Shown here: in pieces, positions 1-23,059 of the stretch | Position numbering within the stretch: the stretch's first letter is position 1 | How the letters are laid out: the number at the start of each line of letters is the position of its first letter | Source of the DNA: Amoebophrya sp. A120 | Lineage: Eukaryota; Protista; Dinoflagellata | Length of the DNA stretch: 64,000 nucleotides | NCBI GenBank assembly: GCA_905178155.1 | Contig: CAJINV010000003.1 | Span: forward strand, 9,245,979 to 9,309,978 | Direction of reading: 5' to 3' | Made by a program: the position numbers and the translations under genes | The notes under the pieces: model-generated | What the model saw: only the letters and a program-made list of their open reading frames with translations | The model's database searches: none | Told to the model about the DNA's origin: nothing

Positions 1-1508
1 CCGGGTAGGGCGCGCCGGGAGGGGGCTCGAGGGCGGCGTGGGCGCCCGGGACAATTCGAAATCACAGACACGCCATCGCCAGAATGCAAAAGCGACACAC
101 TACAGAGCAACGCACAAGGTGCGCTGCCATACGGTATCACACGGTCCAGCGCACCCTAGTGCTCCAGGGAACACGTGGGAAGTGCGCTTCTCTCCGCCCG
201 TCCTCGTGAGGAGCTGACTAATTAGGACGAGGCGTGTGCTGGTCCAAAAGCCCATTTTGTGCATTTTGTCGCGCCTCCTCCACCTAGTGGGTAGAGAGGG
301 GGGCTGATGAATGTTCGCGCTTTCTAAGTGCTATTCTTAGCATCTAGATGCGCTTGCGCATGACATTTAAAGCTTCGAAATACCGAAATCGAACCTACGT
401 ACAGGCAACGGTGGCTTTGCTCATGTACCAGCAACTACACATGCACCGTCAAAACTAAGCTGCTTTCATTGTCACGCAACATGGCGAATCATCCACAAAG
501 TCCTGCTGAGGCCTTGTTATTCATCTAGCCAAGATCATATCGCATACAGTCAAAAATTGATCCTGATGCTGCACGGGACAGATCTATCATGATGTCACCA
601 AAGCACGATGGAACCATATTACACAGGATCCTGGTCGTTGATCTTTGAGATTTGCGTGAAGTACTAACTACATCGCGACGTGGCAGGATCTAGTAGTGTG
701 CTGGCAGTAGTGCTTCATGGTGCTTCTATGGAGTCAGTATGTAGTACTAGCATTCGTAGTCTACTCGCAGGCTGAAAAAACGTCTCCCGCGATGTATTTG
801 CGTTGACGCTTGTGCTTCCTCCGCCAGGCAAAACAGAGTAGAAAGATGGACGACGGGGGAAGAGTGAGCCGAGGAGCAACCGAGAAGGTCAAACTACAGC
901 AGAGAACGATCCGCGCCTACCATCGCACCAACCTCATCAATACGACCCGAACTTTTTGCCAAAACCAGAAACGTGCCTGGTCCTACCAGCTACGGCTATG
1001 CATCATGGCTGCACAGCCGAGCCCTTCCCTTTTCCACTTCCTCATGCCCTCAATATATAATGCGCGAGCCACCTTGGAGTTAGATTATCGCAAGGGAAAC
1101 ATTAGCGCCCGCTGTTCATCTAACTGTTGCAATAAAACGCGCGATCGGTGTGTAGGTCCGCTTCTTCACGCTAAAAAACCGCATACCCAAAAAATGCCCG
1201 AACCTCACCTCGCGAGACCCTACAGAGAAGACACGAAGATAGAGAGGTCAGCGGGAAACCAGGACGGAGGTTAACGAGCACTACGTACATTGACTCACGT
1301 CATGCCGTCAAACGGGAGCCGCGGGCTTACATCTCTTTCGCGACCTCGAAAGCTACAAGCATCATAGCTGTCCTATGTATCTATAAAGCTATCAAATCCG
1401 AGGCATCTGCAACTTCCTTAGTGCGATGTTTTGGCGCAACCCTTACGGCGCCGCTGCAAAAATACCGACTCCAACGATTTGGGTGACAACAGATTGAAAA
1501 CTCCAGCC

Positions 1509-2540
1509 TATCCCAAAGAAAAAAGCCGGCAGGTCAGAAAAAAAATAATTAAATAATAATTGTTATTGTGAACAATAAAAGCAAAACGAAACAACAGAAA
1601 AAATTGCCGCCATACCATGCGGATTAGCTTCAGAGCAGATCAGCAATCCGCGCGAATCCAGGTGGGACTGTTATTGACAACAATAAAAGCAAAACAAAAC
1701 AACAAGAACAAATTGCCGCCATACCATGCGGATCAGCTTCAGGACAGATCAGCAATCCGCGCGAATCAGGGCGGGACGGTGATCGCCTGCGTTTTTTATT
1801 TTTGTGACGAATTTCGCCCATTCGCGCCATACCGTGCGGGCTGGGCTTCGTAGGGGGTTGCCGGCTTCGCCAATCCGCACGGCACGGCGCCCGCAGTCGG
1901 TTTTGCGGCTTTTTCCAGATTTTTTATGTTCGCGCCATAGCGCGCGGGCTGGCTTTCTGGCGAAGCTGCCGGCTTCGCGAATCCGCACGGCGCGGCGGTC
2001 CCAGTCAGCTTCTTAAATTTTGGCGCGTTTTTTTGTTTCGCGCCATACCGTGCGCGATGGGCTTCGTAAGGGATTGCCCGTTTCGCCAATCCGCATGGCA
2101 CGGCGTCCGCCGCCGGTTTCGCGACTTTTTGCAAATTTTCCCTATTCGCGCCATAGCGTGCGGGCCGGCTCTCTGGCGAAGCTGCCGGCTTCGCAAATCC
2201 GCACGGCACGGCGGCCGCGGTTAGTTTTGTGAATTTTGGCGATTTTTTTTCTTTCGCCATACCGTGCGGGCCGGGCTTCGTAAGGGGATGCCGGCTTCGC
2301 CAATCCGCACGGCACGGCGCCCGCGGTCGGTCTTGCGGCTTTTGGCGCGTTTTCATTGTTCGCGCCATACCGTGCGGGCTGGTTTTCTGGCGAAGCTGCC
2401 GGCTTCGCGAATCCGCACGGCGCGGCGGCCGCGATTAGTTTCGTCAGCTTTCGCGGGTTTTTTTCTTTCGCGCCATACCGTGCGGGCTGGCCTTCCTCAG
2501 AGGTTGCCGGCTTCGCCAATCCGCACGGCACGGCGCCCGT
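1509..2540 (+). repeat. Left long TIR built of ~108-bp subrepeats
   Basis: CGCCATA motif recurs at 1608, 1717, 1825, 1933, 2041, 2149, 2255, 2363, 2471; inner units alternate two variants (216-bp higher-order dimer). Confidence 0.9.
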
Positions 2541-2611
2541 GGTCGTTGTAGCGACTTCATCCGCGGGCGACGTCGGCTATGATTCCCCAGAGGGCGCAGC
2601 GACTTTGCTGG

Positions 2612-5600
2612 GGTCTGCCAGTCTCCACGGATAGAGGGGGGGCCGCATTTTTGGCATTCCCAAGCGCTGAAGAACTTGGCGAGGCTTTGAAGTCTTGCCG
2701 CATCTGATTCCGGCGATCACGAATATTCGAGAAGATTCGAAAAGCTGGCAAAACCTTCGACAACTTCCAAACTCCTGCCTTCCCATTTTGAAGCGATTCC
2801 GAATATTCGAAAGCATCCGCCAAAAACTTCCAGAAGAGGGCGCAACTTATTTGGACTATGCCAGTCTCCCCAGATAGAGGCGGGGGCGCATTTTTGGCAT
2901 TCCCAAGCGTTGCAAAACTTGGCGAGGATTTGCCGGCTCGCCGCCTCTGATTCCGGCGATCGCGAATCTTCGAGAAGATTCGAAAAGCTGGCAAGCCCTT
3001 CCCTTCGACAACTTTCAAACTCCTGCCTTTCCCATTTTGAAGCGATTCCGAATATTCGAAAGCATCCGCCAAAAATTTCCAGAAGAGGACGCAATTTATT
3101 TGGACTATGCCAGTCTCCCCAGATAGAGGCGGGGGGCGCATTTTTGGCATTCCCAAGCTTTGCAAAACTTGGCGAGGATTTGCCGCCTCGCCGCCTCTGA
3201 TTCTGGCGATCACGAATATTCGAGAATATTCGAAAAGCTGGCAAAACCTTCGACAACTTTCAAACTCCTGCCTTCCCATTTTGAAGCGATTCCGAATATT
3301 CGAAAGCATCCGCCAAAAATTTCCAGAAGAGGACGCAATTTATTTGGACTATGCCAGTCTCCCCAGATAGAGGCGGGGGGCGCATTTTTGGCATTCCCAA
3401 GCGTTGCAAAACTTGGCGAGGATTTGCCGCCTCGCCGCCTCTGATTCTGGCGATCACGAATATTCGAGAATATTCGAAAAGCTGGCAAAACCTTCGACAA
3501 CTTTCAAACTCCTGCCTTCCCATTTTGAAGCGATTCCGAATATTCGAAAGCATCCGCCAAAAATTTCCAGAAGAGGACGTAATTTATTTGGACTATGCCA
3601 GTCTCCCCAGATAGAGGCGGGGGGCGCATTTTTGGCATTCCCAAGCGTTGCAAAACTTGGCGAGGATTTGCCGCCTCGCCGCCTCTGATTCTGGCGATCA
3701 CGAATATTCGAGAATATTCGAAAAGCTGGCAAAACCTTCGACAACTTTCAAACTCCTGCCTTCCCATTTTGAAGCGATTCCGAATATTCGAAAGCATCCG
3801 CCAAAAATTTCCAGAAGAGGACGTAATTTATTTGGACTATGCCAGTCTCCCCAGATAGAGGCGGGGGTCGCATTTTTGGCATTCCCAAGCGTTGCAAAAC
3901 TTGGCGAGGATTTGCCGTCTCGCCGCCTCTGATTCTGGCGATCACGAATATTCGAGAATATTCGAAAAGCTGGCAAAACCTTCGACAACTTTCAAACTCC
4001 TGCCTTCCCATTTTGAAGCGATTCCGAATATTCGAAAGCATCCGCCAAAAATTTCCAGAAGAGGACGTAATTTATTTGGACTATGCCAGTCTCCCCAGAT
4101 AGAGGCGGGGGTCGCATTTTTGGCATTCCCAAGCGTTGCAAAACTTGGCGAGGATTTGCCGTCTCGCCGCCTCTGATTCTGGCGATCACGAATATTCGAG
4201 AATATTCGAAAAGCTGGCAAAACCTTCGACAACTTTCAAACTCCTGCCTTCCCATTTTGAAGCGATTCCGAATATTCGAAAGCATCCGCCAAAAATTTCC
4301 AGAAGAGGACGTAATTTATTTGGACTATGCCAGTCTCCCCAGATAGAGGCGGGGGTCGCATTTTTGGCATTCCCAAGCGTTGCAAAACTTGGCGAGGATT
4401 TGCCGTCTCGCCGCCTCTGATTCTGGCGATCACGAATATTCGAGAATATTCGAAAAGCTGGCAAAACCTTCGACAACTTTCAAACTCCTGCCTTCCCATT
4501 TTGAAGCGATTCCGAATATTCGAAAGCATCCGCCAAAAATTTCCAGAAGAGGACGTAATTTATTTGGACTATGCCAGTCTCCCCAGATAGAGGCGGGGGT
4601 CGCATTTTTGGCATTCCCAAGCGTTGCAAAACTTGGCGAGGATTTGCCGCCTCGCCGCCTCTGATTCTGGCGATCACGAATATTCGAGAATATTCGAAAA
4701 GCTGGCAAAACCTTCGACAACTTTCAAACTCCTGCCTTCCCATTTTGAAGCGATTCCGAATATTCGAAAGCATCCGCCAAAAATTTCCAGAAGAGGACGT
4801 AATTTATTTGGACTATGCCAGTCTCCCCAGATAGAGGCGGGGGTCGCATTTTTGGCATTCCCAAGCGTTGCAAAACTTGGCGAGGATTTGCCGCCTCGCC
4901 GCCTCTGATTCTGGCGATCACGAATATTCGAGAATATTCGAAAAGCTGGCAAAACCTTCGACAACTTTCAAACTCCTGCCTTCCCATTTTGAAGCGATTC
5001 CGAATATTCGAAAGCATCCGCCAAAAATTTCCAGAAGAGGACGTAATTTATTTGGACTATGCCAGTCTCCCCAGATAGAGGCGGGGGTCGCATTTTTGGC
5101 ATTCCCAAGCGTTGCAAAACTTGGCGAGGATTTGCCGCCTCGCCGCCTCTGATTCTGGCGATCACGAATATTCGAGAATATTCGAAAAGCTGGCAAAACC
5201 TTCGACAACTTTCAAACTCCTGCCTTCCCATTTTGAAGCGATTCCGAATATTCGAAAGCATCCGCCAAAAATTTCCAGAAGAGGACGTAATTTATTTGGA
5301 CTATGCCAGTCTCCCCAGATAGAGGCGGGGGTCGCATTTTTGGCATTCCCAAGCGTTGCAAAACTTGGCGAGGATTTGCCGCCTCGCCGCCTCTGATTCT
5401 GGCGATCACGAATATTCGAGAATATTCGAAAAGCTGGCAAAACCTTCGACAACTTTCAAACTCCTGCCTTCCCATTTTGAAGCGATTCCGAATATTCGAA
5501 AGCATCCGCCAAAAATTTCCAGAAGAGGACGTAATTTATTTGGACTATGCCAGTCTCCCCAGATAGAGGCGGGGGTCGCATTTTTGGCATTCCCAAGCGT

Positions 5601-6450
5601 TGCAAAACTTGGCGAGGATTTGCCGCCTCGCCGCCTCTGATTCTGGCGATCACGAATATTCGAGAATATTCGAAAAGCTGGCAAAACCTTCGACAACTTT
5701 CAAACTCCTGCCTTCCCATTTTGAAGCGATTCCGAATATTCGAAAGCATCCGCCAAAAATTTCCAGAAGAGGACGTAATTTATTTGGACTATGCCAGTCT
5801 CCCCAGATAGAGGCGGGGGTCGCATTTTTGGCATTCCCAAGCGTTGCAAAACTTGGCGAGGATTTGCCGCCTCGCCGCCTCTGATTCTGGCGATCACGAA
5901 TATTCGAGAATATTCGAAAAGCTGGCAAAACCTTCGACAACTTTCAAACTCCTGCCTTCCCATTTTGAAGCGATTCCGAATATTCGAAAGCATCCGCCAA
6001 AAATTTCCAGAAGAGGACGTAATTTATTTGGACTATGCCAGTCTCCCCAGATAGAGGCGGGGGTCGCATTTTTGGCATTCCCAAGCGTTGCAAAACTTGG
6101 CGAGGATTTGCCGCCTCGCCGCCTCTGATTCTGGCGATCACGAATATTCGAGAATATTCGAAAAGCTGGCAAAACCTTCGACAACTTTCAAACTCCTGCC
6201 TTCCCATTTTGAAGCGATTCCGAATATTCGAAAGCATCCGCCAAAAATTTCCAGAAGCGGACGCAATTTATTTGGACTATGCCAGTCTCCCCAGATAGAG
6301 GCGGGGGTCGCATTTTTGGCATTCCCAAGCGTTTTGGGATAAAGCTTGGCGAGGATTTGCCGCCGCGCCGCCTCTGATTCCGGCGATCACGAATATTCGA
6401 GAATATTCGAAAAGCTGGCAAAACCTTCGACAGCTTTCAAACTCCTGCGC
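2612..6450. repeat. Tandem array of 244-bp units (~16 copies, last partial)
   Basis: GGACTATGCCAGTCTCCCCAGATAGAGG recurs at 2853, 3102, then every 244 bp to 6274; edge units diverged, central units identical. Confidence 0.97.
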
Positions 6451-6559
6451 GCCTTCCTATTTCGAACCGATTCGCAGCATTCGAATGCATGCGCGGACGA
6501 ACTCGGCCAAAACTTACAGAAGAAAACAGCAAACCCGCCAAAATTTACGCCGAGCCATA

Positions 6560-7553
6560 AACTCGCCAAGCGGCGCGGAGCGAAAGCAACAAACCCGCCA
6601 AAATTTACAAAACTAATTGCGGCCGCCGTGCCGTGCGGATTCGCGAAGCCGGCAGCTTCGCCAGAAAGCCCGCCCGCGCGATATGGTGCGAACGATGAAA
6701 ATTCGCGAAAAACCGCAAAACCGACTGCGGGCGCCGCGCCGTGCGGATTGGCGGCGCCGGCAGCGAACCTCTTACGAAGCCCAGCCCGCACGGTATGGCG
6801 CGAAAGCAAAAAAATCGCAACAAGTTACGTACAAAACTAATCGCTGCCGCCCTGCCATGCGGATTTGCGAAGCCGGCAGCTTCGCCAGAAAGCCAGCCCG
6901 CACGCTATGGCGCGAACATAAAAAATTTGCAAAAAGTCGCAAAGCCGATCGCGGGCGCCGCGCCGTGCGGATTGGCGAAGCCGGCAACCCCTTAGGAAGC
7001 CCAGCCCGCACGGTATGGCGCGAAAGAAAAAAACTCGCGAAAATTTAGAAAAACCAAATGCGGCCGCCGTGCCGTGCGGATTCGCGAAGCCGGCAGCTTC
7101 GCCAGCAAGCCAGCCCGCACGCTATGGCGCGAACATAGAAAATCTGGAAAAAGCCGCAAAACCGACTGCGGGCGCCGTGCCGTGCGGATTGGCGAAGCCG
7201 GCAACCCCCTACGAAGCCCAGCCCGCACGGTATGGCGCGAATGGGCGAAATTCGTCACAAAAATAAAAAACGCAGGCGATCACCGTCCCGCCCTGATTCG
7301 CGCGGATTGCTGATCTGTCCTGAAGCTGATCCGCATGGTATGGCGGCAATTTGTTCTTGTTGTTTTGTTTTGCTTTTATTGTTGACAATAACAGTCCCAC
7401 CTGGATTCGCGCGGATTGCTGATCTGCTCTGAAGCTAATCCGCATGGTATGGCGGCAATTTTTTTTGTTGTTTTGTTTTGCTTTTATTGTTGACAATAAC
7501 AATTATTATTTAATTATTTTTTTTCTGACCTGCCGGCTTTTTTCTTTGGGATA
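6560..7553 (-). repeat. Right long TIR (inverted copy of the left arm)
   Basis: 7075-7553 is a near-exact reverse complement of 1509-~1990; the inner 108-bp units are more diverged. Confidence 0.9.
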
Positions 7554-8668
7554 CAGCCGCAGCATTACAAAGACAAGTCACGGAGGGAAAGAGAACAGCC
7601 TGACGGCACGCTGTCGCCGCGTACTGAGATCCTCAGTTAGACAAGGGGGGACCGACGTCGAAATATGTGCTGCGATTGTGCAGTGACACAGCATGTACAC
7701 ATCTGCACGCGTGAGGGGCACCCCGGAACGCACCGGTTGCGTTTTTATTGCGGCTAAAGTACTCACATTCCTCATTGCGGCCCGATTGGGGTTTTTCAGA
7801 GATAATTATTGTAGACTTTTTCGCTAAGCTGGCATTGCGACAAAGGGACGCAACAAAATTGAAAAACTGTGACTCGATTGCATTTTCAAGTGCAACGCTG
7901 GACTTTGATAAACCTCACGAATGAGTCGACGCACGGCCGCAGGCGCCAACAGTTGTTGGCCAACAATGTAAGTAGGCGCGACGCCGCTGGCATCCTGGAA
8001 CGCGGCCGCCCAGCTTAAGCACGCACGTTGTATGGTACTTCTGGCATAAGTCGACGTGACCACAACCAGCAACATTGCATTTCTGACGGTGTGCGTGAGG
8101 TCAAGTCGCCCGCGTGGCACGGGCTTCACTCGGGGACTCGAACATTCCTAGATCAAGACACAACATTTGATGGTAGTGATCAAAGAGCGACTAGACTTCA
8201 TTTTCAATGAGCTCGAACTCCGCTTCCGCATCCTCGGACCCGCCTGTGCTGTGATGCTGTGTATGCACTGCAAATATTTGTAATCAGGAGTGGAATACAG
8301 ACGCACAAGCTGAAGGTAAAACGCCCCAAGAAATCCCTATCTCCCCGGCAAGGAACTTTATGAAGTCCTAACCTACATCAAGTTCAAGTGCACTGTAGAA
8401 CTGCAAATACATCAAACTCAATGTAAGTACACAATCAGAACAAGTAGCAACGGCTCACCCTACACAGTGCACTTCAATTCGTGCGCCTTGTGCCAACAAT
8501 TCGAGTTACGCACTGAAGAATCAGTACTAGACTCGCTTTCGCGATGAAAATACGCTTGAAAATTGGCACTGCTGAGGCTGACGTTGGGCATGACTTGGAT
8601 CAAAAAGAGCACTCCTGCCTCTGGACAACCTGAGTGCTCTTCTTGTCGGGGTTCACATACCACGCTCA

Positions 8669-9746
8669 TCAACCAGCATCTACGCTGTTCCCGTTCCTGA
8701 CCCGGCCCTGTACAATATTTAGATACGGACTCACCTGTCCGAGCATTTCCCAATCGCGCGGACTGTGGGGGCTAGCCGGCACGGAGTCGCCCTGCGGGAA
8801 AAGCGGCGGCGTCCGTTGCAAAGCATCAGTGGGCCGGCCAACATCCAACACAGGTTGCAGCGGCTGGCTTGACGGATTCCCCGCGCCCGTCTGTGCGTGT
8901 GCCGCTCCTGCTCCTTGACGTGGCGGCTTCTGGCCCTCTGGACAAGAAGAGCACTGTGTCGCATCTTCCGATCCGAGTTGTGACTTGGGCTGACGGCACT
9001 CCTGCTCGTCCGACGTAAAAATACTAAGCGTAGTACTGGGCAGGGCGGCGCTGCCGTTCGCCGTCTCCTCCCTCGTCTCTCTCCCGCCTTGCCGCTCCAC
9101 TACAGGCAGGAAGACGCGCGTAGAAGATACGGCACGATCATCACCTTTGCGCGTTGCTGCAGCTGCTCCACTCCCTTTACCAAAATCCGTGACGCGCGGC
9201 GACGACATCAAAGAAGCCCCGGCTTGCTGAACCTGCTCCCATTCTTGCAGGCTTGACTTACAGCTTCGACGCCCAGACGTTTCGGACGCCTGGAATACCT
9301 CGCCAAGAAGAGCTTCGAAAACTTCAAAACGCAAGGCGTGGGCAAGAAGCAAATCCTGAGCCGTAGGCGAGAAGCATCAAATCGCAGCGGAAATACCATG
9401 GGAAGTAAGGCCTCTCAGGGCTTTTAGGCAGTAGCGCTTCACACGCCCAGTGCCGAGGCCGCAATTGGCGCACCAAAGTACGCCAGAGCTCAGTAGTCGC
9501 AGCACAAATCGAGCAACGAAACAGGCAAGGCATTGCCGCCGGGAGAGCGAGCACATACAAGCGCGCCCGCCCGTGCCGGTATGTGCTGCTTTCCCTGCAG
9601 CTGTCGGCACGCTCTTTTCTCGGCAGCGGCAAACAAGATCTTCTCGCGGCCGTAGGCGCCCAGGCCTCCTCGCGAGCCGAGAGGCTGTTGCCGTTCTTTT
9701 TGGCGTCTCTAAACAAACTTTTTGGTGAAATCTTGTTCTTTAGCAA
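8669..9746 (-). CDS. Low-complexity coding exons, possibly the C-terminal extension of the synaptojanin-like gene
   Basis: ORFs 8669-9352 and 9324-9746 are Ser/Ala/Pro-rich like neighbouring exons; exon joins unresolved. Confidence 0.35.
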
Positions 9747-9767
9747 GATAGCATAGCGTTGTTCTTT

Positions 9768-12700
9768 TTATGCATAATATGCATTAGCATAAGCGAGCGA
9801 CGCGACTTGACTAAATGAGAGGTCTTCTGTAGACTGTTTGAGGTATTCCACGGCCCCATGAACGCCCGGCATCGGAGGAGTACCTGACAGCTCTCCATTA
9901 TCCAGAAAAAAAAGTGTGTAAGTGTAACTTTCTTTGAGGAACAGCATCACAAATTTGCTTTGTCATGCGTGGCTTGTAAGGCAAAACACACCTGAAAAGA
10001 GAGCTTCGTGGCTGTCTGGCATGACAGGTGTAACTCTGTTGCATGTTCTGCAACACAAATTTACACTTACACAGTTTTTTTCTTGCATATCCATGCTCTT
10101 CCCGGTCATGGAATTCGAGTAGTACTCCTTCGAGGTATATCAACTGCAAATATGTCTGGGTCTGGAAGGATGCGAACTTGTGATGCGTGTTGCGGATCAT
10201 GCAAAAATTTGTGTTGCATGACTTGCAAAAGGTCCCCATTTCTAGCCATTTTTTCATTTCATTTCATTCAGAAGGGCGCTTCTCATGCATCGCATCGCAT
10301 CGTATCGCATCGTAGTGACCTTTGACTCCTGTCAGGGTGGCGTTGGAACAGCTTTAGCCCCTGCCAATACCTGGGCGTTAGAACAGATTTCGCCTCTGCC
10401 AATACCCCTCACCATCATCATCATTGAGACGGACCCCCTGTGGTCGTCCTCACGGCGTCGTCTTGGCCCTAGGCTGTTTCGGACAGATGTTGGTTGTGTC
10501 CGGCGTGAGGACGGCTCTGCATGGGCCTCATGCAGAGAAGGCATTTCTCATGCAGAATAGGCTTCACCAAGGGGCTGCAGGACCTGTGAGGACGCTAGGC
10601 CCTGCATTCCAGACCTGGCAGAGCTTGGAAAAACGGCATGACAAATCTCGGAATTTTCCAGACCCAGACATATTTGCATTTCATAAGGTAGTCGAGGACC
10701 ACGGGGCGGTGATCGCTTCCCGTGCAATTGAAATACGCGGTGTACCCCAAAAAGGCCTTCTCCGCGTGGCGACTGCTCAAGTAGGCGCCGCTGGACGCCA
10801 CCTCGTGCCTGGCCAAAGCTGCGGCGTGCGAGTCGTGCTGGCCTGTCAGATGATGACTGTGTCCGCCTCCACCGCCGGGAACTACTGACGTCCTGGAGCT
10901 GCTGGAGGTCGCCGCACAACTTTCAACATCGCTAGAATCCGTTTCGCCCGAAGTGGATGTTGACTGCGGCTGGTCATTGCAGCCTACATTCGCCCCCAAG
11001 GATTGCGCCCTTTTTAACGGAAGCACTTTGATGTCATCTCCTGTCGCGAATCTCGTGGCTACGGAGGGTGAAAGGGCTTCCGCAGATTGAGACGGCACCA
11101 GAGACGAAAAGGATGACAGGGGCAATGCCCCTGTGCCTTGTTGATTCAGCGGACGTCTTCGCAAAACAACGTCTGCCCCATCCTCGTGCAAATGCCGGTG
11201 CGCCGGAACTTTCAGACCGCGCCCGGCAAACAAAATCCGATCACACCAGGCCGGTTGGCGCGACACATCGTAGTGGTACTCTTCTCTGTGAAGCCGGTAA
11301 GTCGGAGGAAACGCGATCGGCATCTCGCGAAGCGCAAGATAGTTCTTGTTCATTCGTGTGGCTACATCTACTCCTGGCGTTTTTCCCAGCTCGCCGGTGT
11401 GCTCTTGCAGACTCAACATGGATGCTGCAGAGATAAGGAAGTCCATATTCAAAGCACGCAACTATAAAAGGTAAAACTCGTCACGTTACTAGATGAAACA
11501 TAGAATAGTCAGGGTACGCAAATTACTCGCGGAAACGACGAGAGTTGTATCAAGGTACGAGGTAGATTTACGCTTACCTTTCTCGTTGAGGTACTGATCA
11601 AACCTGCACAGGTCCCGCCAATGCTTGTAAACGTGGTCGGAATGCCGCGCGGTCGCGCGAAATGGGTCCAACTCTGCGTCGGTGAAGGCAGTGGGGTCAT
11701 AAACATCACTGAGCTGCTCGAACTTAACGCCACCTGCGCTCCCGGTTGATGGGCCCGCAACCGCACTCGAACCACTTCCACGACCCGCGGGCCCAACGAC
11801 CCCAGCCTTCGGAGCTGGCGAAGCACCGCAACCGCTGCTACTTGTGTCAATCCGCGTTTTTAGGAGACGAAAGTTAAAGTCACCAGCACAGATCACAATG
11901 TCATAATTGAAGCGGCTCTTGTCGCTATTCCAGATCCGTCCAGACTGGAGGATGTTTGTCAGTTGCGCGTACCGCCGCGAGGCGTTTGTAATACCGCTCT
12001 CCAGGTGGACGTTGGCGAAGCACAGAGTCGTATCCAAAAGCTGGTATTACAATGAAAAATGCCCCCTCCCCATATCAAAACGGAAATCTGTGATGCAGAT
12101 TTGTGGTCACAAATCAGGTTTGTGATGCTAGAAGGCAAAAGATGCGGACTGTAGTGCTGTCTAGCGTGGGAAAGCCTTGCAGCTCCAGGATGACAGTAGG
12201 CAACTGGAAGTGGGAAACAGCATGACAGATTACCTGCAATTTAGGCCGCAGCTTCGTCTCTTGGCCTTCTATTTGTGTACTCAAATACAGCATCACAAAT
12301 TCGCGCATCTTCCGTTTCCGATATGGGGTGGGGGCTTTTTTCACTTTGATAGCTGGAAGTTCAGCACCACCGCGCCCTTGTTTCCAGCCATGCCGCCCAT
12401 GCCCTCCGGAATATCGCAGCTGCCAATGCGGGAAATCATAGGAGCGAGGTGGTCTGCCACAAACACAACCGAATACTGTCCGATCATCCCGCAACCCTTC
12501 ACTTTCGAGTAGCTCACGTGAGAAAATAGCTTCTCCGACGTAGTGCTGGTCCCACCTCTGAGATTGAGACTCGCACCAGCAGGCTGCTTCGTGGGTGGGT
12601 TGGGAAGATGAACCCCGCTCCTACTAGCCTCCGCAGTCGACTCAGGGCGACCGCTCGCTCGTGGCGGAAGGCTCAGGTCGTAAGAACGAGGTTCGCCAAG

Positions 12701-15700
12701 ACCGTTCCGCCCCTCGACTCCGAGATCGGGATTTGTGGCAGCGGCAGGCGGATCCTTGGCCGGATCAAAACGCGGACAGAAGGGACGCCGGGGGCTCGCG
12801 ACATGGCCGCAGCCGTATTTTTGCTTCAAGGCTGCGTCAATTTTCGCATTGATCTCTTGTATGGAAGCGTCAGGATTGAAATCGACAAAGTTGTAATGCA
12901 TGAAATCGATACCAGTTGGAAGCTCAGTTTCCAAGCGGTGCATGACAAATTTCGGCACCGTCTAAATCTAGTCTGTCATGCTGTTTAGGGACAGGAGGCG
13001 TCTTTTATCGTGCTACTTTAGCAGCTCTATCTCAGACCCCAAACAGGCTGACAGTCAGCCTCACTTGCCATCCCTGCAAGAGAGGCACTTCATGCCTTGC
13101 AATTTATGCATGAGAAATTATTTCAACTGTGACGATTTCAATCCTGACAGTTCCATATCTTGTTCGATCGTCGTATCCCAGGAACCCCCGACCAGGGATG
13201 TGGCGGTGGCGACGTATCAAATGTAAAAATGTCTGGGTCTGGAAGAGTCATGCTGTTTTTGCATGACACAGAAGGTCTGGCATGGAAGCTCTAGCATTAC
13301 AGGTTTCGAGAAGCTTCCGCAATGTCGAATCCGCATGACAAATCCCCCACTTTGGTGACAGAAAGTGGGCAGCTTCTGCTACCCATGCATGAGAGATTTT
13401 TCTGTGTTCTGAAATGTGCATTACAAGTTCGGATTCTTCCAGACCCAGACACTTTTACATATGATACGACGCCCAGATCCACAACTTCTTGGAAGTTAAA
13501 CACCATGATGTCTCGCGGAACTTCCGGGAGAACGCGCGTCAATTCTTGCAGAGGATCCGTCGTACCGCCCACATTCCACGTGCAGGTGAAAAGCGTGAAA
13601 TTGCCGACGTGTAGCTTCTTACGGTGCTCTCGTGATACCAAAAGTAGCGTCAGAGCGGTGCCAGTGAGCTGACGGCAGCTTTCTTGTCTGGGTGTGGCGG
13701 GCCGCCGCGCCGGCGAAACAACAAGACCAGTGGCCTCGCAGTGCCGTGCGTTGTGCCACTGCTGGGCATCATAGACTGCGCTCTTTTTTTTTTAAGTAAT
13801 TAAAGGTGTGTAGCGGCCGCTCAAACTCGTGCCGGAAAGTCGCAAGCTTCTTGCAATCAAAAAACCAAGGCCGGTCCGCTCGCTGTGCCCGGCCCCCGGA
13901 CCTTCACCAGGGCCGAGCCTTTTGACGCCCGGCCCCGGAGAATCGACATCGGCGGGCGCCACAGTACACGGGCGGGCTTTCAGTTTTTCGCCTTTGCGGA
14001 CATTTTCATACGTTTTCATGTTTTTCGCTCCCGCTTTTTACAATCTATCACAAGCGCCACCGCTCCTTTTCCTTTCCTATCTTTCCAACTTGTTTCCGGA
14101 CAATAACTGGCCGACTCACGATTCGGGTGGCCGCATTTCCGGCCCTCAAATGTGAGCACAAGTGATGCCCTCACCATCCAACGACCTCACTTTTTCCTTA
14201 CTTTCCGCTGTTGCTTTTTTGGCGTCTCCGTTTTCGCGTGCAAAAACTAAATCGCGAGAATCCGCACGTCGCAGCGGCGCTACTTTCGCCCGCTCCCCAC
14301 CTGCGTCGTTCTTTAAACTGACGGCACTGGACAGAATCCAGGTGGGCTTATTTGACGCAAAAAACCAAGTGAGCCGATCAGACTCAGAGTTAGAAAGTGA
14401 CAACAATATTTTTGCATGTGTCAAAAATAAAAGCCTCCGGATCGCTCCAAAATTGCCGGTAGGGTTTCTACTTGCTGCATGTCAAGAAAGCCGCCAGGTT
14501 AGAACACTCGCGAGGACCTCACTCCATACAATATTCTGAAAGCGTTCGGAAAGCGGTGGGCTACGCAGCAAAGCGTCGAGACACTCTTGTCGTGTCGCAT
14601 CTTCCACTAACGCGTTGTATTTGCGCGCGACGGACCTCCAGGCGAATTCGTAGTGCGAGTGCTTGCCCTCCCGCAGGAACGTAGAATAGATGGAGGCCAC
14701 GCCAGTTGTCTGCTCGCTAACTTGATCGCCAGCATCCGCCCACAGGACTTGCAAACCCCCTCGAACGCGCTGCTCGTCGCCGGGCACTAGCAGGCCAGTC
14801 CCGATGCCTACCGTAGCCTCCGCCGAGCTCCTCATCGCGTCGTGCGAATGCCGCTGCGGGTCCCTGAAACTTGCCTCCCCACCTGCTCCATTGTATCCTT
14901 CGCCCGTTCCGCCACTTTCTTTTTCCGCTGCGTGCGACGAGGTAGAAAAGTAGTCAAAAAAACTCTGCCCCCACCCCGGCGCGTCGGCTTCCGGCATCTG
15001 TTTTTCCAGTTGCTGTGACGTCGACTTGGAAGTAGGCAGGGTGGGCACGGGACCACCAAAAAGACGTGTGGGAACCGCGGCACCGACGGCGGCTCTGGAG
15101 GCGGAGGCGCTCTGCTCCGCGCCGTTCGGACATGAACCGTCGTCGTTCTTGACTTGTTTTGGCTCTATTCCTGCGATGAAATCGTGAATGCTTTGCCTCG
15201 TATTTGCTTTTCCAACGCTCCGGGAAGGAGCCGCGGCAGAGCACTTAGGGGATCGTGGGGTTTGCGACGACGAGGCATGATGTGGCTGAGCCACAATCTC
15301 GATCGGCCCGACGCTCGTTAGTGCATCCGGACGCGAGAGCGCATGGCCGCCCTTTATTTTATTTGTGGGGGATGCAGCACTACTCGGCGACTTTCCTGCT
15401 GCGCGGCGCTTTTCCTCGGCAAGAAAAACCTGCTGCACGAACCACCAACAAAAACCAAACTGCATCAGGTTTGTGCGATCCAGGCAATCCATGCAATTCG
15501 TGCGCACGACGCCCGACTGCCGAGTCCTCCACACGCACGGATGTGGTTGTACTGGACTTTCTCCAGCACTTCCGCACGCGTCGCCCGGCTCGTGCGCTTC
15601 ATGATCGGAGGTCCGTCCATGCACTACGTCCTGTGCGCCGCGGCGTCCTGATTCGCCAGCACTTCTATCAAACGTCGTCTGGTGTGTCAGCACCGCCACT

Positions 15701-18700
15701 TGGTGCTCGGGCAAACCGTCACAGCTCGCGAACCCGTACTCTTCGAGTTCCGGCCGCCACTTGTCCATATCAAGTGCAAAAGTGTCTGGGTCTGGAAGAT
15801 TCCGAGATTTGTCATGCATATTTCTCATGACCCATGATGCCTGTGGTGCATGATCTAGCATCACAGACTTTTAGAGGGCTTCCTGATGCAACTTCCGCAT
15901 GAGAAATGCCCTGTCCGTGTAGCACAAACTGTACCCCTCTTGCTGGTCACGCAATACAAATTTTTTTGGAGTCCAAAGTTAGCATCACAAATTCCAACCT
16001 TCCAGACCCAGACATTTTTACATTTGATAGTCCACCTCTGCAAACAATTCCTCCACACTCGTAAGTCCCTTGTGGTTGCAGGATCGTGTGTAGAACTGCT
16101 TCCGCCCCATACTCAAAAAAAACATGATGCCTATGGTGCGTGTTCTGCTTTACACGTCAGAAACTCGTCCGGGGATCTGCATAGCACAAGTTTGTGCTCT
16201 ACTGACTAGGCATACGTATGCAGAAATTGCATGACAAGCACAACAAGTAAGGGGTGGCGGGGAAGTTTTCAAACAGCGTACGAAGTCGAAGTGCTTCAGC
16301 AGAAGGCAGCGACGCGCCCCAGCGGCTGCCCCTGATATTGCACCGTAGTCATCGGGCCCATTCGCGCGCGCGCTGCTCGAGGGGGACCCGCCCGAGGACG
16401 GAGACGAGCTCCCGAGCTGCTCCATCCGGAGCGGCGCCACGCCGCCCGTTTTTCCGGTGCAGTGCGTGGTGGTCTTGTCGTGTCCTCGCGTGGTCGCGGA
16501 AACGCCGTCCACCGCGTGCAGCCGCAATTCGGCGGCGCGCCCGCTATCCTGAGCCGCCGTCGTTCGTGGTGGCGTCACCGTGACGTCGCTGCCCCTTGGT
16601 GGAACACCACGGTCTGTGCCTGCGGGTCCCTGGGCGTCGGAGTGAACAGCTACTGAGACCGCGTCGGATGTACGGAGGAGCTCCGCATCTTTGGGAGCGG
16701 TTGTTGTAGAAGAGGGTGTGGTCGTGCCAACGGCTGTGTTGAGACTGTCTTCTCCTCCTGGCACGACCCCAGAAATGTTGCTGCACGCAGGTGAAGGGAC
16801 CACCGCACCAGCAGAGCTGCTGACGGAAACTGATGCAGCGACAGCCCCACAGTTGTTCTTGAGGCCCTTAGTACTCAACCGCGGCAGCTTCGAAGCCACG
16901 GCACGGCTATCGCGATGCCGAACTTCGCGTAGGTACTCCTGCACTTGCTCCTGCAAGGAGTCGACTAGCATTTGCTCTCCTGCTTTTTTGTCCTATTACA
17001 ATGAAAAATGCCCCCACCCCCGAACTTGGAAGCATTTGTATTGCAAACCTTTCCAAATGAAACATTCGCCCTCTTGCATCTATCAGCATTACAGGTTTCC
17101 AGTCGTGAATAGCGAAAATTTGTATTGCAAAAGACCCCAGCAAGAGCGGCGCTTGTCATGCAGGCAGCGCGATACACGCCTAGACTCTGCATCAGAAAGA
17201 TAAGACTCGTACTCCTTTCATGCATGACAAAAAGTTTTCATTTGGAAACTTCGCATCACAAATTCTTGCAATTTTAGGGGTGGGGGCATTTTTCACTGTA
17301 ATATGTCCGACAGCAAGTTCACGTACATCACGCAACCATACATCCTCTCCAGGCCTTCCTGGTGCTTTCGGAATCCCTCCTTTGCAAACTGCGGATGCGC
17401 GCCATCAAGAGGAAGAATCCCCGCTTCCAGTGGTTCAACATCCACGTGCTTTGCTTTCTTTCTATCGATATCGTGTGCACACGACCCAGCACCATTGTCC
17501 TCACATGTGTACATACATTCCTTCGGAGATACCGGGCGAAGGCCCTCTATTGTTCGGCGCCCCAAAACGAGCACCAGCAGGGAGGTGATAGTACCTCTAT
17601 TTGTCTAGGTGCTAGCTATGGACGCGCTCGACGCCTCTTCTGGTGCCGTAGACCAAACAGCAGTATTCAAGATGGAGCACCGGCGGTAGGATGCGATAGA
17701 AAGCTCTCGATCATTATTTGAAGAGCGCCTTCTGGTCTTCGCAATTTGCGTATACAACTAAACGCATGAGAATCACAGATCTCCTTTGGAACATGGAGAG
17801 CGGGATAAATTTTTCCTGATGATACTCACGGGTCAGCTCCGGAATTCCCATTGCATTTTGCTCCCAGAACAGCGGCACCGATCCCCGTATTTGTATAAAG
17901 CTGTATTGCGTGAACAATGTCGCTGCACCAGCCGTCGTGGCCGAGGGCGTTGTACTAGCAGCAATCGACAAAGATGCAGCGGTCCTGGTGAGCTGTGCGA
18001 GCTGTTCCAATTCGCAGAAGTTAGCAACGTCCCCCGCGTCGTCCATGCCTCGACATGCATACCGAGTGCCAACCCGGCGACAAGAGCGTCGCACGATCAA
18101 CAAGAGCCGGACTGAGGCGGACGAAGGGACTGGACGGCCGGAGCATCCGCTAGCGGGGTCGCTGGCGCTACCCGACGTCGCCATTTCGCAGCCTCTATGG
18201 CCGTTCGTAGCCTTGACATTTTTTTCCTCCCGTGCTGTTGACCCAGTACAATCTGTTGCAGCGCTAGTCGCCTTTCCGCAGGACGCAGGAAAGAAAGTGG
18301 TCGGCTCTCTCACCAGCCCACTAGTAGGAGACTGCAATCCCTGAGGCAACGTAACGTCTTGGTTCGTCCCCAAATTCGGTTGGCTGGGACGGTTGCCTTT
18401 GGCGTACACTCTGTGCGTGCCGGCGTCTTGAGGCACGACGTTGCCTGAGTTTTCTCCCTTTGCGACTGCTCGTCCAGTTCGCGAGGACATACGCTCGGCT
18501 CGCTCGTGGGTGGCACGGTTGTAATCCGCCGGCGACAGAAAAGACACATCATCTATCGCACGCTCCCCGACAAATCCCTGCATAAGCACAGAGAGCCACG
18601 CCTGCGTTCGTGTGTCCTGATGAAGAAAAATCCGTGCCATCTCGTGGTTCCAGACAAACCGTACGTCCGCTGTTTCGAAAAGAAAGTGCTGTGTGTTCTC

Positions 18701-19684
18701 GTAGGAAGCTGACAGTCGCCCACTAGCGGCACGGGGGATTCCGCCTGGGCCTACCGAAATCGGTTTTGCAGGAGGTTCCTGCTGCCGCGCTGCCGGTCCT
18801 ACTACACATGGGCCTCGTTGGTTAGCGGCATCCGCAGTTCCAGTTCCCGTCCCCGACTGCATTTTGACTTCAGTGTTAGCCGCCGAAAGAGAGGAGCTCA
18901 CCGATACGGGCGCGCCGCACCCATCTCGGAGGTGCGAGCGAGTCGAACTAGGCGTACTACGGAGCGCACCCGGCGCAGTCGTTGCGGACGAGTTGTTGTA
19001 CATGGCCAACTTGCGCTGCAGTGTGCGAGTGAGGTCGATCTCGTTGCTGAAGTAGAACCCGGAAGATTGCAGGAGGCGCTCCAGACCCTGGATTTTTTGT
19101 GCGTGTACAGTACTCGTACTATTTTGCGCACTGTTAATGGGCAGTAACTCCACCTGGGCGACCCGGAATATTTTTCCGTACGAAGGGCTCCGGTTGCAGC
19201 CGCCGGCATGGTCGGGTGCGGCCCAGTGGTCACTCGTTGCAGAAGAGCCGGGAAAGAAACTGAACGGGCGCGACGAGGGCCGATCGTCGACGTGCTCGCG
19301 CTGCTTCTTGCTGGTCGTGCCGGCGCCCGAGAAAAAGGGGTACGCGCCCTCAGGGTACAGGTCCAACACTTCAGTGGCCTTGCTGCAGTACAGGAGGTAA
19401 TGCATGCGCTTTTCGAGCGACAGGATTCCAAACAACGCCAAACAGCTCCTCGGAGGGTGTTTTGTCGTGTTACGCTGAAGCCCGAGGGGGGTCTCGTGCA
19501 GCAACGGCATGGAATGCAAATAGTACTCCGATCGGGATGTGAAAAGATGTAGACTCCTTGAAATTCTTGTGCTCGGCGGGCAGTCGCAGCCTGAGCTCTG
19601 CAAAAATGCCCGGCGCAGAAGCACGCCCCTTTTTTGCTCGTCATGGTCGTCTTTCAAACTCACTATGCTTTCTTGGTTGAGCAC
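9768..19684 (-). CDS. Synaptojanin-like phosphoinositide phosphatase (SAC1 domain + inositol polyphosphate 5-phosphatase), multi-exon
   Basis: SAC motifs RRSCRRVGTRY, ANFCELEQ, QIRGSVPLFWEQ, VNLLSDKKAGEQ (after splicing) and catalytic RTNCMDCLDRTN (CX5RT). 5-phosphatase motifs TWNVGG, FQEVVDL, GNKGAV, FANVHL, GDFNFRL, FPPTY, PAWCDRILF, GSDHRPV, in the expected order. Ends approximate. Confidence 0.9.
9899..10089. mobile_element. TIR introner (family D), non-canonical intron
   Basis: TIR TATCCAGAAAAAAAAGTGTGTAAGTGTAA vs TATGCAAGAAAAAAACTGTGTAAGTGTAA; TSD TCCAT (9894-9898, 10090-10094); removal reads EEHG-ELSG. Confidence 0.88.
10138..10685. mobile_element. TIR introner (family A, TGTCTGGGTCTGGAA), non-canonical intron
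   Basis: TIR TATnAAnTGCAAATATGTCTGGGTCTGGAA; TSD AGGTA (10133-10137, 10686-10690); removal reads SDHRPVVLDYL-EGVLLEF. Confidence 0.92.
11425..11577 (-). other. Probable canonical GT-AG intron
   Basis: G|GTAAGC donor and TCTGCAG| acceptor join ORFs 11489-12037 and 10595-11461 in frame (NEK-ASMLSLQ). Confidence 0.6.
12045..12351. mobile_element. TIR introner (family C, GAAAAAnGCCCCCnCCCC), non-canonical intron
   Basis: ~40-bp TIR; TSD GCTGG (12040-12044, 12352-12356); removal reads GNKGAVVLNFQL-LDTTLCFANVHL. Confidence 0.92.
12860..13157. mobile_element. TIR introner (family B, TATGGAAnnGTCAGGATTGAAATCG), non-canonical intron
   Basis: TSD TCTTG (12855-12859, 13158-13162); removal reads TTIEQE-INAKIDAAL. 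Confidence 0.92.
13215..13466. mobile_element. TIR introner (family A), non-canonical intron
   Basis: TIR TATCAnATGTAAAAnTGTCTGGGTCTGGAAGA; TSD CGACG (13210-13214, 13467-13471); removal reads QEVVDLGV-ATATSLVGG. Confidence 0.92.
15768..16029. mobile_element. TIR introner (family A), non-canonical intron
   Basis: TSD GTCCA (15763-15767, 16030-16034); removal reads EELFAEVD-KWRPELEEYGF. Confidence 0.92.
16994..17303. mobile_element. TIR introner (family C), non-canonical intron
   Basis: TIR TATTACARTGAAAAATGCCCCCACCCC; TSD TGTCC (16989-16993, 17304-17308); removal reads VNLLSD-KKAGEQML. Confidence 0.92.
17403..17824. mobile_element. Decayed TIR introner
   Basis: Imperfect IR (CATCAAGAGGAAGAATCCCCGCT vs TATCATCAGGAAAAATTTATCCCGCT); flanks CGCGC/CTCAC match 3/5; removal +5 nt reads ELTR-(A/E)HPQFAKEGFRKH. 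Confidence 0.6.
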
Positions 19685-22600
19685 AAACTAACGCAACGTT
19701 TGCCGGCACGCAAGCATACTTGTTGCCTCTGATGCATTGAAACAAACCTGCTCGAGCTATTTGCACTCGATACCCTCCATTCTACAGCTACGGCGGCAGA
19801 TCTGCAGAAACGCGCTCTTCGGTTCGTCCTCTGCTCCATCACGGAGGGCGCGCTCCCGGCGTTCGACGAACAAGTGGGCGCATCATATGCAAAACGTACC
19901 ATGAACCTGTGCGTCCCGGCCGCTATGAATTTCGGCACTAGAGGTCTTTTGTTCACCGAGGTTCGCGCGGTCATACATATTCATGCGCAGTGGCAGTGGG
20001 CGGTCAATGTTACTTCATTATGAAAGCTATTTCGAGGATAGCGGCCACGCTTCGCGAGCACATGATCCCCTCCCTACAAGGGCTGCGTAGGAAGAGGCAA
20101 CAAACCTAAAAAACGGGATAGCACGACCCCGTTGTTTACATTCCGCAGATATTGAACATTTTTGAGTAGTTTCAGGTATGACTTTCCTGCGTGTGTAGAA
20201 GAGCTTGGCTAAAATCAAAAAAACTGCCAAAATCCATACAAGATCAAAATGGTGACTAGTACGTGTACGCTCCTTCTTGTGCTTGTGATAGCCCGTCTGT
20301 GACATGAATGTGTAGCGACTGTTCGGTTGCGCCACGCATCCACTCGAAACGAAGGAGAATTGATGTCCTAAGACACCGCTTTACGCATCCGCTCCGTCCC
20401 TGCAGACTCCGCCTCGGTTAGGCATCCATTCGTTCCCTCACCGTCCTAGTTCTCGTCGAGGTAAAAAAGCAATAACATGCGCTGGCCACGCTGCCACCAT
20501 CATGTACGGGATGAAGCCAACCCCTTCACACAGCATCAGACCGGGTGCTGCAAGTCAGCGTCTTCGTCTCAGAGCAAACGTCGCCCAGAATGAAGATGTG
20601 GCGCGCAGAAGACCTCAGGTCGGTCGCGCGCGGCTGCTGTCTGCGCAGACTTACGGCAGAAGTGCTGCTCTCTCTTTCCAAGCTTTGCCCTTCTTCATGC
20701 CAAGCTCTCGCTGATGATGTCCAGCTGTGACTTTGCGTGGCAGTATTTGGCGTGGCTACGCGCTGCCAACATGGTGTTGAGTCGCGGCAGCGGCAGGCTG
20801 TACTCGAGACATAAACAAGCAGGGGCTGTGGACATGGGGACTCTGCCCCGAGAGTTTTGCCGCACGTCGTGTCACTGCCATGATTTGCCTGATGAGTTCC
20901 GCTTTCTTGCACTCTAAGAGCAATCAATCGCTCACGGTCACGCTGCAAACAAATTCAGTGGATTAACAGACTATGAGAGCCACTGCAGGCTTCTCATCCG
21001 ACTTCTATACTTGGCCAGTTGCGGACACATAGTTAGCGCAGCGTCCTCAGGAACGTCTTAGGACAGTAACCATAGCATAGCTTATCATGGGAATTGGCTG
21101 GCTGGCGCTTCTGCCTTCTGGTGAAGATCGCAATCTTCGAAGTAGAGCTGGCATTACTAAATACACGTGAGCAGAGAAAACTCACCCGAAAGTGTCGGAC
21201 TACGGTCTCTGCCTCTCCGGAGCAGGAGATTTTGGCATCCTGGAAAACGGAAACGCACAGCGCATGTGGTCATGGTTGCAGCGCCACAAACCTTCCTCGG
21301 TGTATAGCTCGATCAGCCTGGTGCTGGCTTATTCTTCTGCATTTTCTCAATTCCAGTTAATACGGTTTACATTTTCATTTATGTTTATCGGTCATAACTT
21401 TTGAAAGTGACAGACACTTCAAACGACGAAGCAGAAAACATATCGCGCGAGTCTGATGCGGAGGTAGCTCGTGATGGTGATAGCTCAGAGGTGAGGTCAA
21501 AAGCCCTCGTACAGATTCATCATGAGGTCAAAAATCATCTGAATTTGTTGTCTACAAGTACTATGGAACGAGCTCGCTGGTTCTTGCTCGTGCAGAAGTG
21601 GTACTAACGGACCGCGCCTTTCCAGGTGCTGTCGTCTGACAACAACAGACGGAAAGAAAATGAATGCACGCAGCAGCAGCACACGAAGGCTCAGACCAGC
21701 ACTTCTAACCGATCGCGAAGTATCTAGGAAGCGGCGACTGCAAGTCGTGCGTATCTTCATCTTGACGAGAATTGCATAGCGCGCTCTTCCGTTCTTTTTA
21801 ATGCAAAAATCGAAAGACAGGATCAGGAAAAGGAAAACAAGCGTAGAAATACCAGCCACGGCCCCGCCAACTACGCGATGAATCCACAAAGTGAAAGTAG
21901 AATCTAACGCAACGCCTACCAGAAGACCGATAGTATTTCATTGGGTTTTATTTGGCCGATTATCTTCTAACACTAATGCAAGTCAGGCCGCGTTGCCCTA
22001 CGGAACTTTCCTTCTCGCTCAGACCGTCTCCATCTCGGTGAATATAACATGGTAGTGAAGAAGATATAGCAAGTACTACGGCAAAAAAATGCTTTACGGA
22101 CCGAACGAAAGAATCCGCACAAGAGCTGACGCTGTGGTGGATTCTTTGCTCGTCACTGCGGGGTTGCAGTTATTTCCCAACAATTACAGTTGCTTATTTT
22201 GGATTTTTTGGGAGGAGTAAATATCTAAAAAAGTTATCAGTGTGTCTGCTGGCTTTCAACCACAGGAAAGTCCATCGCATGTGTGCGCATGCAAGGAAAG
22301 TCTCGCGCTTGTTCGCTTTATATCCATTCATGTGCTTCACTTCTAGAAGGTGAAGCCATGTGCTTTATGTAAAAATATCAAAGAGAAGTAAAGTAAGTAA
22401 AAATATACAATAAACAAAAGTCGTTTCAACAATATTCAACAAATCTTGCTCAAGCTTGTAGTTTAGAATCTGTATCTATATTCTCGATGTCATTGGTGCA
22501 TTCGGTTGGGAAGTGGCGGATCCTGCTCGTGCTGGTCTTCACAATCCATGATGCTGCATGATGCTGGAAAAGACGCCCCGTCTCGTAGCCTGCACATTGA

Positions 22601-23059
22601 GAGAGTGCGTGGCACTTTGATCCAACAAGAACGAATCTCTACGCGGAGTCTCTCAGTGTCAGTAGTGGTGCTCAGGCCCCCGCATTATACTGTTGTGCAC
22701 AATATCAAACGCAAGTGGTGCTCCTGCAGCATGACGCTTCAAGACTAGTCCTGGCGATGCCCAACGTCGAGCCTTTCGACGAGCCTACTGATTCAACTCA
22801 ATTAGTAGTCTTGTCATCAGAACAGATGAAAGACACTCCCGACAAAGGCAAAAGTAGAAGGCTTGCCAGAGAAAGTGGACGCGGCCAGTAGCAGACTCGC
22901 TGTGCCACAGATGCAGCGCAACATATTACTGGACTTCTACTTCTTTATCCCACACCGACACCACCCGCACTGATTATAGTATTATTACAAAGTGAGACTA
23001 TTTTTCCGCGGCGCTGGTTACAAGAGCTGGAAAGACGGGCGAGCGTGCACGTCGTTTGT

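What the first reader, a model, noticed from the sequence alone, without database searches (positions are those of the whole stretch)
1504..7558. 6-kb foldback/satellite element shares the end signature of the intron-forming elements
Seen: TAT...ATA termini and a perfect 5-bp TSD (CAGCC), the same geometry as the short introners. Its first 19 nt (TATCCCAAAGAAAAAAGCC) match the family C end at 12351 (TATCAAAGTGAAAAAAGCC) at 15/19, and TATCCC ends also occur at 34516, 42134, 42303 and 58338. Inference: one transposition system may move both ~0.2-0.5-kb introners and a multi-kb non-coding cargo of modular TIRs plus satellite. That would link intron gain to satellite dispersal and point to where an autonomous partner might be found. 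Known analogues are Drosophila Foldback/Galileo-type elements with internally repetitive long TIRs.
Basis: partly seen in the sequence, partly recalled or inferred. Interest (0 to 1): 0.85.

Follow-up and report, generated by a model that had tools for sequence, protein, structure and literature searches.

The report
Giant foldback cousin of intron-making transposons
A 6-kb non-coding DNA element with mirror-image arms around a satellite array has the same ends as a small family of likely intron-forming mobile elements, so one still-unfound jumping enzyme likely moves both.

Summary
The element is real as described: 1509-7553 (6,045 bp), exact 5-bp target duplication CAGCC, arms of about 1 kb made of 108-109-bp modules, and 15.7 copies of a 244-bp satellite. 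No transposase was found in it. Its TAT-N7-AAA end is the published Amoebophrya A120 introner motif. Short-read contigs reach both outer junctions at single-copy depth, and show two further flanks and roughly 3-4 copies (rough). New here: a related assembly holds 165-171-bp elements with exact 5-bp duplications whose first 28 bases match this element at 25-26 positions; the other 634 of 636 scanned ends match at 19 or fewer. One lies in a likely coding frame, and its interior weakly resembles the first arm module (57%). The big element sits downstream of a gene, is not shown to be spliced, and lacks the TGTNATGC-type motif found in 316 of 318 short elements. Not shown: the transposase, target duplications at other copies, and whether other copies carry the satellite. 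A foldback that shares ends with a MITE and breeds satellite is known (Tetris/DAIBAM). The link to introners was not found in my searches.

The parts
1504..1508 (.). Left copy of the 5-bp target-site duplication CAGCC
1509..1537 (+). Terminal 29 nt (TAT-N7-AAAAAA-GCCGGCAGGTCAG), shared with the short sister family at L056:356-526 and L049:2525-2689
   Evidence: 26/29 and 25/29 in alignment A1; blastn 26/28, 27/30 and 25/28
1538..1820 (+). Left arm, outer part: AT-rich stretch, then 109-bp modules 1 and 2 (tandem call 1561-1767); module 1 weakly resembles the interior of the short sister
1821..2557 (+). Left arm, inner part: about 7 modules of 108 bp alternating in two types (216-bp dimer), each with a palindromic GC-rich core and a T-rich linker, in register with the terminus
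2558..2615 (.). Junction between left arm and satellite; rests on the assembly alone
   Evidence: no contig depth in bin 2553-2640
2616..6448 (+). 244-bp satellite, 15.7 copies; 13 central units differ by 0-3 bases, with variants shared by runs of neighbours; no detected similarity to the arm modules; no Pfam hit in the four unit frames tested
6449..6579 (.). Spacer between satellite and right arm
6580..7553 (-). Right arm: 6 inner modules, 2 outer modules and the terminus, inverted relative to the left arm
7554..7558 (.). Right copy of the duplication CAGCC
7664..13791 (-). Neighbouring host gene (inositol-5-phosphatase-type domain PF22669; a SacI domain at 17717-19687 may belong to it); stop near 8191-8193, RNA contig ends at 7664; the element lies about 640 bp beyond the stop
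10138..10685 (.). Short TAT...ATA element, duplication AGGTA; RNA contig pieces stop exactly at its edge (10686) in two runs
12045..12351 (.).
24700..24908 (.). Short element, duplication CTTGC; an RNA contig piece resumes at 24909
9899..33914 (.). Span holding the other seven short TAT...ATA elements with exact 5-bp duplications: 9899-10089, 12860-13157, 13215-13466, 15768-16029, 16994-17303, 28726-28988, 33563-33914

Best explanation
This is a non-coding, foldback-type DNA transposon that likely belongs to the same TAT-ended, 5-bp-duplicating system as the introners of an Amoebophrya A120-like parasite, and is likely moved in trans by the transposase that also moves a 165-171-bp sister family. 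Shown: the anatomy, the duplication, raised arm depth with other flanks, the shared 28-nt end, and no coding capacity found. Inferred: (1) a DDE transposase encoded elsewhere pairs the two ends and inserts with a 5-bp staggered cut and little target preference; (2) that enzyme is integrase-like (Ginger2/Tdd- or Copia-integrase-related); (3) the arms grew by tandem amplification of a roughly 108-bp subterminal unit related to the sister's body, adding binding sites that help a long element pair its ends; (4) the satellite amplified between the arms as passive cargo; (5) having lost the TGTNATGC-type motif and grown to 6 kb, it is not spliced and so persists outside coding sequence.
For: Exact duplication and 61 identical terminal bases. 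The end fits TAT-N7-AAA, the published A120 introner motif, as do 16 of 20 short-element ends against 53 of 1,020 other TAT sites; profile score 8.9 bits, reached by 5 of 1,020 background sites. In 144 loci of a related assembly, 319 TAT pairs up to 1 kb have exact 5-bp duplications against 0-3 for 11 control trinucleotides, with near-even base use in the duplications. Two ends match the element at 25 and 26 of 28; the other 634 of 636 match at 19 or fewer. A second sister copy, L049:2525-2689, has duplication AAGGA. Removing four successive elements from L056, each with one duplication copy, leaves one 183-codon open frame across the sister's site. The sister's interior scores above all 500 shuffles and first of 636 real ends against element nt 31-220. 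DNA contigs 1-1538 and 7526-9928 have no differences at depth 45.7 and 45.9; arm depth is 6-8.5 times single copy; two other flanks abut the terminus. Longer cargo-bearing members of other end families exist (631, 972, 1,104 bp). [quoted passage not shown]
Against: No transposase was found, so a shared enzyme is an inference from ends. The motif TGT[ACG][AT]TGC is in 10 of 10 window elements and 316 of 318 short elements in the loci, but not in the big element; if it is a transposase-binding site, the big element may need a different enzyme or may move poorly. The interior resemblance is weak: 37 of 65 aligned bases, and E = 1.6 in a window-wide profile search, where an unrelated introner scored higher; only 2 of 4 end orientations passed the shuffle test. 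The junction contigs reach only 30 and 28 bases into the element, under the tool's 31-base bridging rule, and the DNA runs are one sample that may be the assembly's source. No sister copy lies in the window itself, and splicing of the sisters is not shown by RNA. Farhat et al. argued against general transposase-mediated mobilisation because they found no transposase in A120. The exact 22-nt end was not found in the metagenome collection that holds the related assembly.
Confidence: 0.7

Rival explanations
1. One-off local growth: a short introner-family element inserted here and then swelled in place into arms and satellite; the 6-kb form is no longer mobile and does not disperse the satellite, and the other arm copies are shorter or differently filled relatives.
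For: Satellite in other copies is untested; very homogeneous central units suggest recent local amplification; the subterminal motif is missing. Tetris authors suggest that large arrays disrupt transposition.
Against: Inner modules as well as the terminus are at raised depth, with alleles not in this copy, and two other flanks abut the terminus. The duplication is perfect and the outer arms are 99% alike, as expected of a recent insertion.
Confidence: 0.15
2. Independent foldback family moved by its own transposase (for example a deleted Polinton/Maverick-like or other long-TIR element), whose end resembles introner ends through shared ancestry of the enzymes, not shared use.
For: Missing subterminal motif; many introner end families differ after base 13, so several related enzymes may exist; A120 introners were assigned to diverse classes.
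Against: 25-26 of 28 terminal identity to one specific short family, and weak colinear resemblance beyond it.
Confidence: 0.1
3. Partial assembly artefact: the ends are real but the middle is mis-joined, or the satellite copy number is wrong.
For: No contig covered 2553-2640, and many inner-arm positions showed only other alleles; the best DNA run held half of the sampled words of 1000-2900.
Against: The matching duplication on two different single-copy flanks argues that both ends belong to one insertion; arms differ in module number and sequence, unlike a read fold-back; contig sets drop repeat variants by design.
Confidence: 0.05

Closest known systems
Tetris and its MITE DAIBAM, Drosophila virilis (PMC4079207; abstract and first part of the discussion read)
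   Same: Non-autonomous foldback with modular TIRs, ends shared with a short element, tandem units derived from the outer TIR, satellite amplified inside the element, autonomous partner unfound.
   Different: Tetris has 8-10-bp duplications (Mutator-like) and its satellite is the TIR unit itself. Here the duplication is 5 bp, ends are TAT, the central 244-bp satellite shows no similarity to the arm modules, and the short partner likely forms introns.
Amoebophrya A120 introner elements (PMC7789003; abstract, sections 5 and 11, passages, supplement passages)
   Same: TAT + 7 bases + AAA inverted ends, direct repeats of up to 5 nt, no coding capacity.
   Different: Their analysis covered introns of 40-1000 bp; this element is 6 kb, has 1-kb modular arms, lies outside coding sequence and is not shown to be spliced.
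A120 introner family 38 and Ginger2/Tdd transposons (PMC12130899 sections 6 and 14, Dataset S2 rows; PMC2836005 passages)
   Same: fam38: TIRs, 5-bp TSD, TA/TA termini, partial homology to Copia/Gypsy elements. TDD-4 and TDD-5 make 5-bp duplications with an integrase-like enzyme.
   Different: Ginger ends are TGTNR, not TAT; fam38 is about 808 bp with TIRs near 50 bp, and the paper says it lacks Ginger termini and TSDs. No fam38 sequence was available to compare.
Galileo and Foldback, Drosophila (search listing only; discussed in PMC4079207)
   Same: Long, internally repetitive TIRs, with repeats proposed as extra transposase-binding sites.
   Different: Galileo is of the P superfamily with an identified transposase; none is identified here.

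Membership tests
Foldback-type non-autonomous TIR transposon | Long terminal inverted repeats | tested here: met
   977 columns at 91.5%
Foldback-type non-autonomous TIR transposon | TIRs built of internal tandem modules | tested here: met
   9 left and 8 right modules at 106-112-bp spacing
Foldback-type non-autonomous TIR transposon | Target-site duplication | tested here: met
   CAGCC, exactly 5 bp
Foldback-type non-autonomous TIR transposon | No transposase gene inside | tested here: met
   longest stop-free frame 260 codons; 0 of 8 internal frames tested hit Pfam
Foldback-type non-autonomous TIR transposon | Dispersed copies, each with its own duplication | tested here: inconclusive
   two other flanks and 6-8.5-fold arm depth; ends could not be paired, no genome held
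Amoebophrya A120-type introner | TAT-N7-AAA inverted ends with a short direct repeat | tested here: met
Amoebophrya A120-type introner | Lies in a transcript and is spliced out | tested here: inconclusive
   no open frame across the empty site on either strand; site is beyond the neighbour's stop; no RNA contig joins across it, but the contig sets are sparse
Amoebophrya A120-type introner | Subterminal TGT[ACG][AT]TGC motif (defined here from the data, not from the literature) | tested here: not met
   0 in the element; 10 of 10 and 316 of 318 short elements
Ginger1/Ginger2-Tdd | TGTNR termini | tested here: not met
   termini are TAT
Ginger1/Ginger2-Tdd | 4-bp duplication (5 bp in TDD-4/5) | tested here: met
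   5 bp, as in TDD-4/5
Ginger1/Ginger2-Tdd | Integrase-like DDE transposase in an autonomous copy | not testable with these tools
   no genome held; records not searchable by family; crude motif screen of 286 long frames in the loci found none
Mutator-like foldback (Tetris type) | 8-10-bp duplication | tested here: not met
   5 bp

The most novel reading that the evidence does not exclude
An introner turned foldback: one end of a 170-bp intron-forming element was amplified into 1-kb modular arms that now carry kilobases of satellite around the genome, moved by an undescribed integrase-like transposase class (TAT ends, 5-bp duplication) that also drives the mass intron gain of Amoebophrya; loss of the TGTNATGC motif marks the split between a splicing signal and the transposition signal.
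Probability: 0.35. Interest if true: 0.78.

Novelty: new variant of a known kind. Interest (0 to 1): 0.56.

Why it matters
How Amoebophrya introners move and how they are spliced without U1 are open questions: the genome paper found no transposase in A120 and doubted transposase mobilisation. A recent-looking 6-kb insertion with introner ends argues that the ends alone can be a transposition substrate with wide size tolerance, and it gives a rare, specific 28-nt end family to use as bait for the autonomous element. The contrast between the long element (no subterminal motif, not in coding sequence) and the short ones (motif in 99%) offers a natural test of whether that motif serves splicing or transposition.

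Tried and rejected
Exact end pattern: 0 hits in metagenome contigs and 0 in viral contigs. A looser end pattern gave 4 viral hits, all single, unpaired and unlike the element beyond the pattern, taken as chance. Introner-end and satellite patterns: 0 viral hits. Module-core pattern: 0 of 148 loci. Rfam over 1-9000: one match at E 0.56, far below threshold. Pfam on 45 frames (37 of the 85 long frames outside the element plus 8 inside): no transposase or integrase. Family and pattern searches of the related records were not possible. My first reading that the L056 sister interrupts a 118+89-codon frame was wrong: the right part was another introner read in frame; it was redone with neighbours removed. 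The L049 flanks gave no homologue and only a sub-threshold Pfam hit, so its coding context is open. The idea that the element sits inside an older introner found no support. Exact splice points at 10138-10685 could not be fixed: 48 contig letters were not shown. Some cells of the module identity table (values near 0) are alignment failures and were ignored. Earlier scan notes: three look-ups, nothing. Literature: 'foldback' + 'introner' 0 papers; searches listed no paper on such an element in Amoebophrya. Roy et al. 2023 (Curr Biol) was not read. Figures S19-S25 of PMC7789003 and S9 of PMC12130899 are images I could not see. In Dataset S2 I read 50 of 58 A120 rows; automated notes for fam25, fam60 and fam122 mention 4.0-6.8-kb extensions with 'Satellites/Simple Repeats found', which might include this family, but give no sequence.

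Full report
Observation. The element spans 1509-7553 and is flanked by CAGCC on both sides. The arms are identical for 61 bases, differ at 4 of the first 415, and fall to 86-90% inward. Each arm is a train of modules at about 108-109-bp spacing counted from the terminus: two outer ones and six or seven inner ones that alternate in two types. Outer and inner modules share a core above all 300 shuffles. Between the arms lie 15.7 copies of a 244-bp unit with no detected similarity to the modules. None of 8 internal frames tested hits Pfam, and Rfam gives nothing credible.

Setting. Ten short elements (191-548 bp) in the window have TAT...ATA ends and exact 5-bp duplications, against at most 3 for any other trinucleotide. 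TAT + 7 bases + AAA is the motif published for Amoebophrya A120 introners (PMC7789003), so the host is inferred to be A120-like. RNA contigs stop exactly at element edges 10686 and 24909, consistent with splicing. The big element lies about 640 bp beyond the stop of a minus-strand phosphatase-domain gene; no frame is open across its empty site. It is therefore not shown to be an intron.

Is it real and mobile? In DNA run X1, contigs 1-1538 and 7526-9928 match without differences at depth 45.7 and 45.9, like seven long unique contigs at 39-47. They enter the element by 30 and 28 bases, just under the tool's bridging rule, and the sample may be the assembly's own source. Depth on the outer arm is 335-387 in X1 and 205-230 in X2, that is 6-8.5 arm equivalents, or very roughly 3-4 two-armed copies; the tool warns that depth is no copy number. 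Two other flanks abut the terminus as loose ends.

The end signature. A scan for another introner family's end returned 144 loci of a related assembly, whose introners match the window's at 81-94%; this sample is biased toward that family. In them, a 171-bp element (L056:356-526, duplication TGGTC) matches the big element at 26 and 25 of the first 28 bases, while the other 634 of 636 scanned ends reach 19 at most. A second copy, L049:2525-2689 (duplication AAGGA, one end reads TAC, so outside that scan), matches 25 of 28. Removing four successive elements from L056, each with one duplication copy, leaves a single 183-codon open frame through the sister's site; this suggests, but does not show, that it is an intron.

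Beyond the end. With the terminal 30 bases excluded, one orientation of each sister aligns to the first arm module: score 41, above all 500 dinucleotide shuffles and first of 636 real ends, for L056; 1 of 500 shuffles reached the L049 score; the opposite orientations were not significant. The colinear block is only 37 of 65 identical, and a profile of the two sisters finds it at E 1.6 window-wide, though 76 control profiles scored at most -1.2 bits on the arm against 5.4. I rate descent of the arm module from the sister's body as likely but unproven (about 0.6). Against full kinship, the motif TGT[ACG][AT]TGC is in 10 of 10 window elements and 316 of 318 locus elements but absent from the big one; the aligned position reads TGTTATTG.

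Mechanism. Best reading: a trans-acting DDE transposase recognises the TAT-N7-AAA ends, cuts the target with a 5-bp stagger and little sequence preference, and tolerates cargo; members of 631-1,104 bp with unrelated interiors exist in other end families. That the enzyme is integrase-like is inferred from the literature: TDD-4/5 make 5-bp duplications (PMC2836005), and A120 fam38 has TIRs, 5-bp TSD, TA/TA termini and partial Copia/Gypsy homology (PMC12130899). That the modules add binding sites is borrowed from Galileo as discussed in PMC4079207. No transposase was found here, and the genome paper reported none in A120.

Comparison and verdict. It works like Tetris/DAIBAM and meets the tested foldback features; it fails the Ginger terminus and the Mutator duplication length, and is not filed as an introner. 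The foldback-MITE-satellite pattern is known; its occurrence in the TAT/5-bp introner system, with a specific short sister, was not found in seven literature searches, although automated notes in Dataset S2 hint at multi-kb satellite-bearing extensions in A120. New variant of a known kind; interest 0.56.

Noticed in passing
window 62974-63046: Two adjacent perfect hairpins (18-bp and 17-bp arms, 1-base loops), preceded by short direct repeats at 62849-62953; possibly the end of another mobile element.
   Followed up: no
window 8257-8725: An older TAT...ATA element (8262-8725) whose two flanking 5-mers have diverged; RNA contigs of two runs skip it with one 5-mer, giving a non-canonical TA start and an AG end on the minus strand.
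   Followed up: partly
all short elements, window and L001-L144: Inward-facing TGT[ACG][AT]TGC motif 30-80 bases from the ends in 316 of 318 short elements across otherwise unrelated end families; candidate splicing or transposase signal.
   Followed up: partly
L015:505-1608: 1,104-bp TAT...ATA element with exact duplication GCAAC whose interior is filled with degenerate GAGAGGGT/ACCTCT repeats in both orientations: a second repeat-carrying member, of another end family.
   Followed up: partly
window 1507 (loose end): One of the other flanks of the big element's terminus contains GCATGACAAAT, the short-element motif, so that copy may be nested inside an introner.
   Followed up: no
window 13149-13809 and 15793-16453: Summed DNA contig depth of 146,000 and 105,000 against about 45 for unique DNA: these introner families have very many copies.
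   Followed up: no
window 1109-1377: A 269-base contig of a presumed RNA run lies in the left flank at depth 10; no Pfam hit in the overlapping 155-codon frame.
   Followed up: partly
window 34182-34516, 35571-36006, 55226-55518, 58055-58338: Older elements with one changed end or one mismatch in the duplication.
   Followed up: partly
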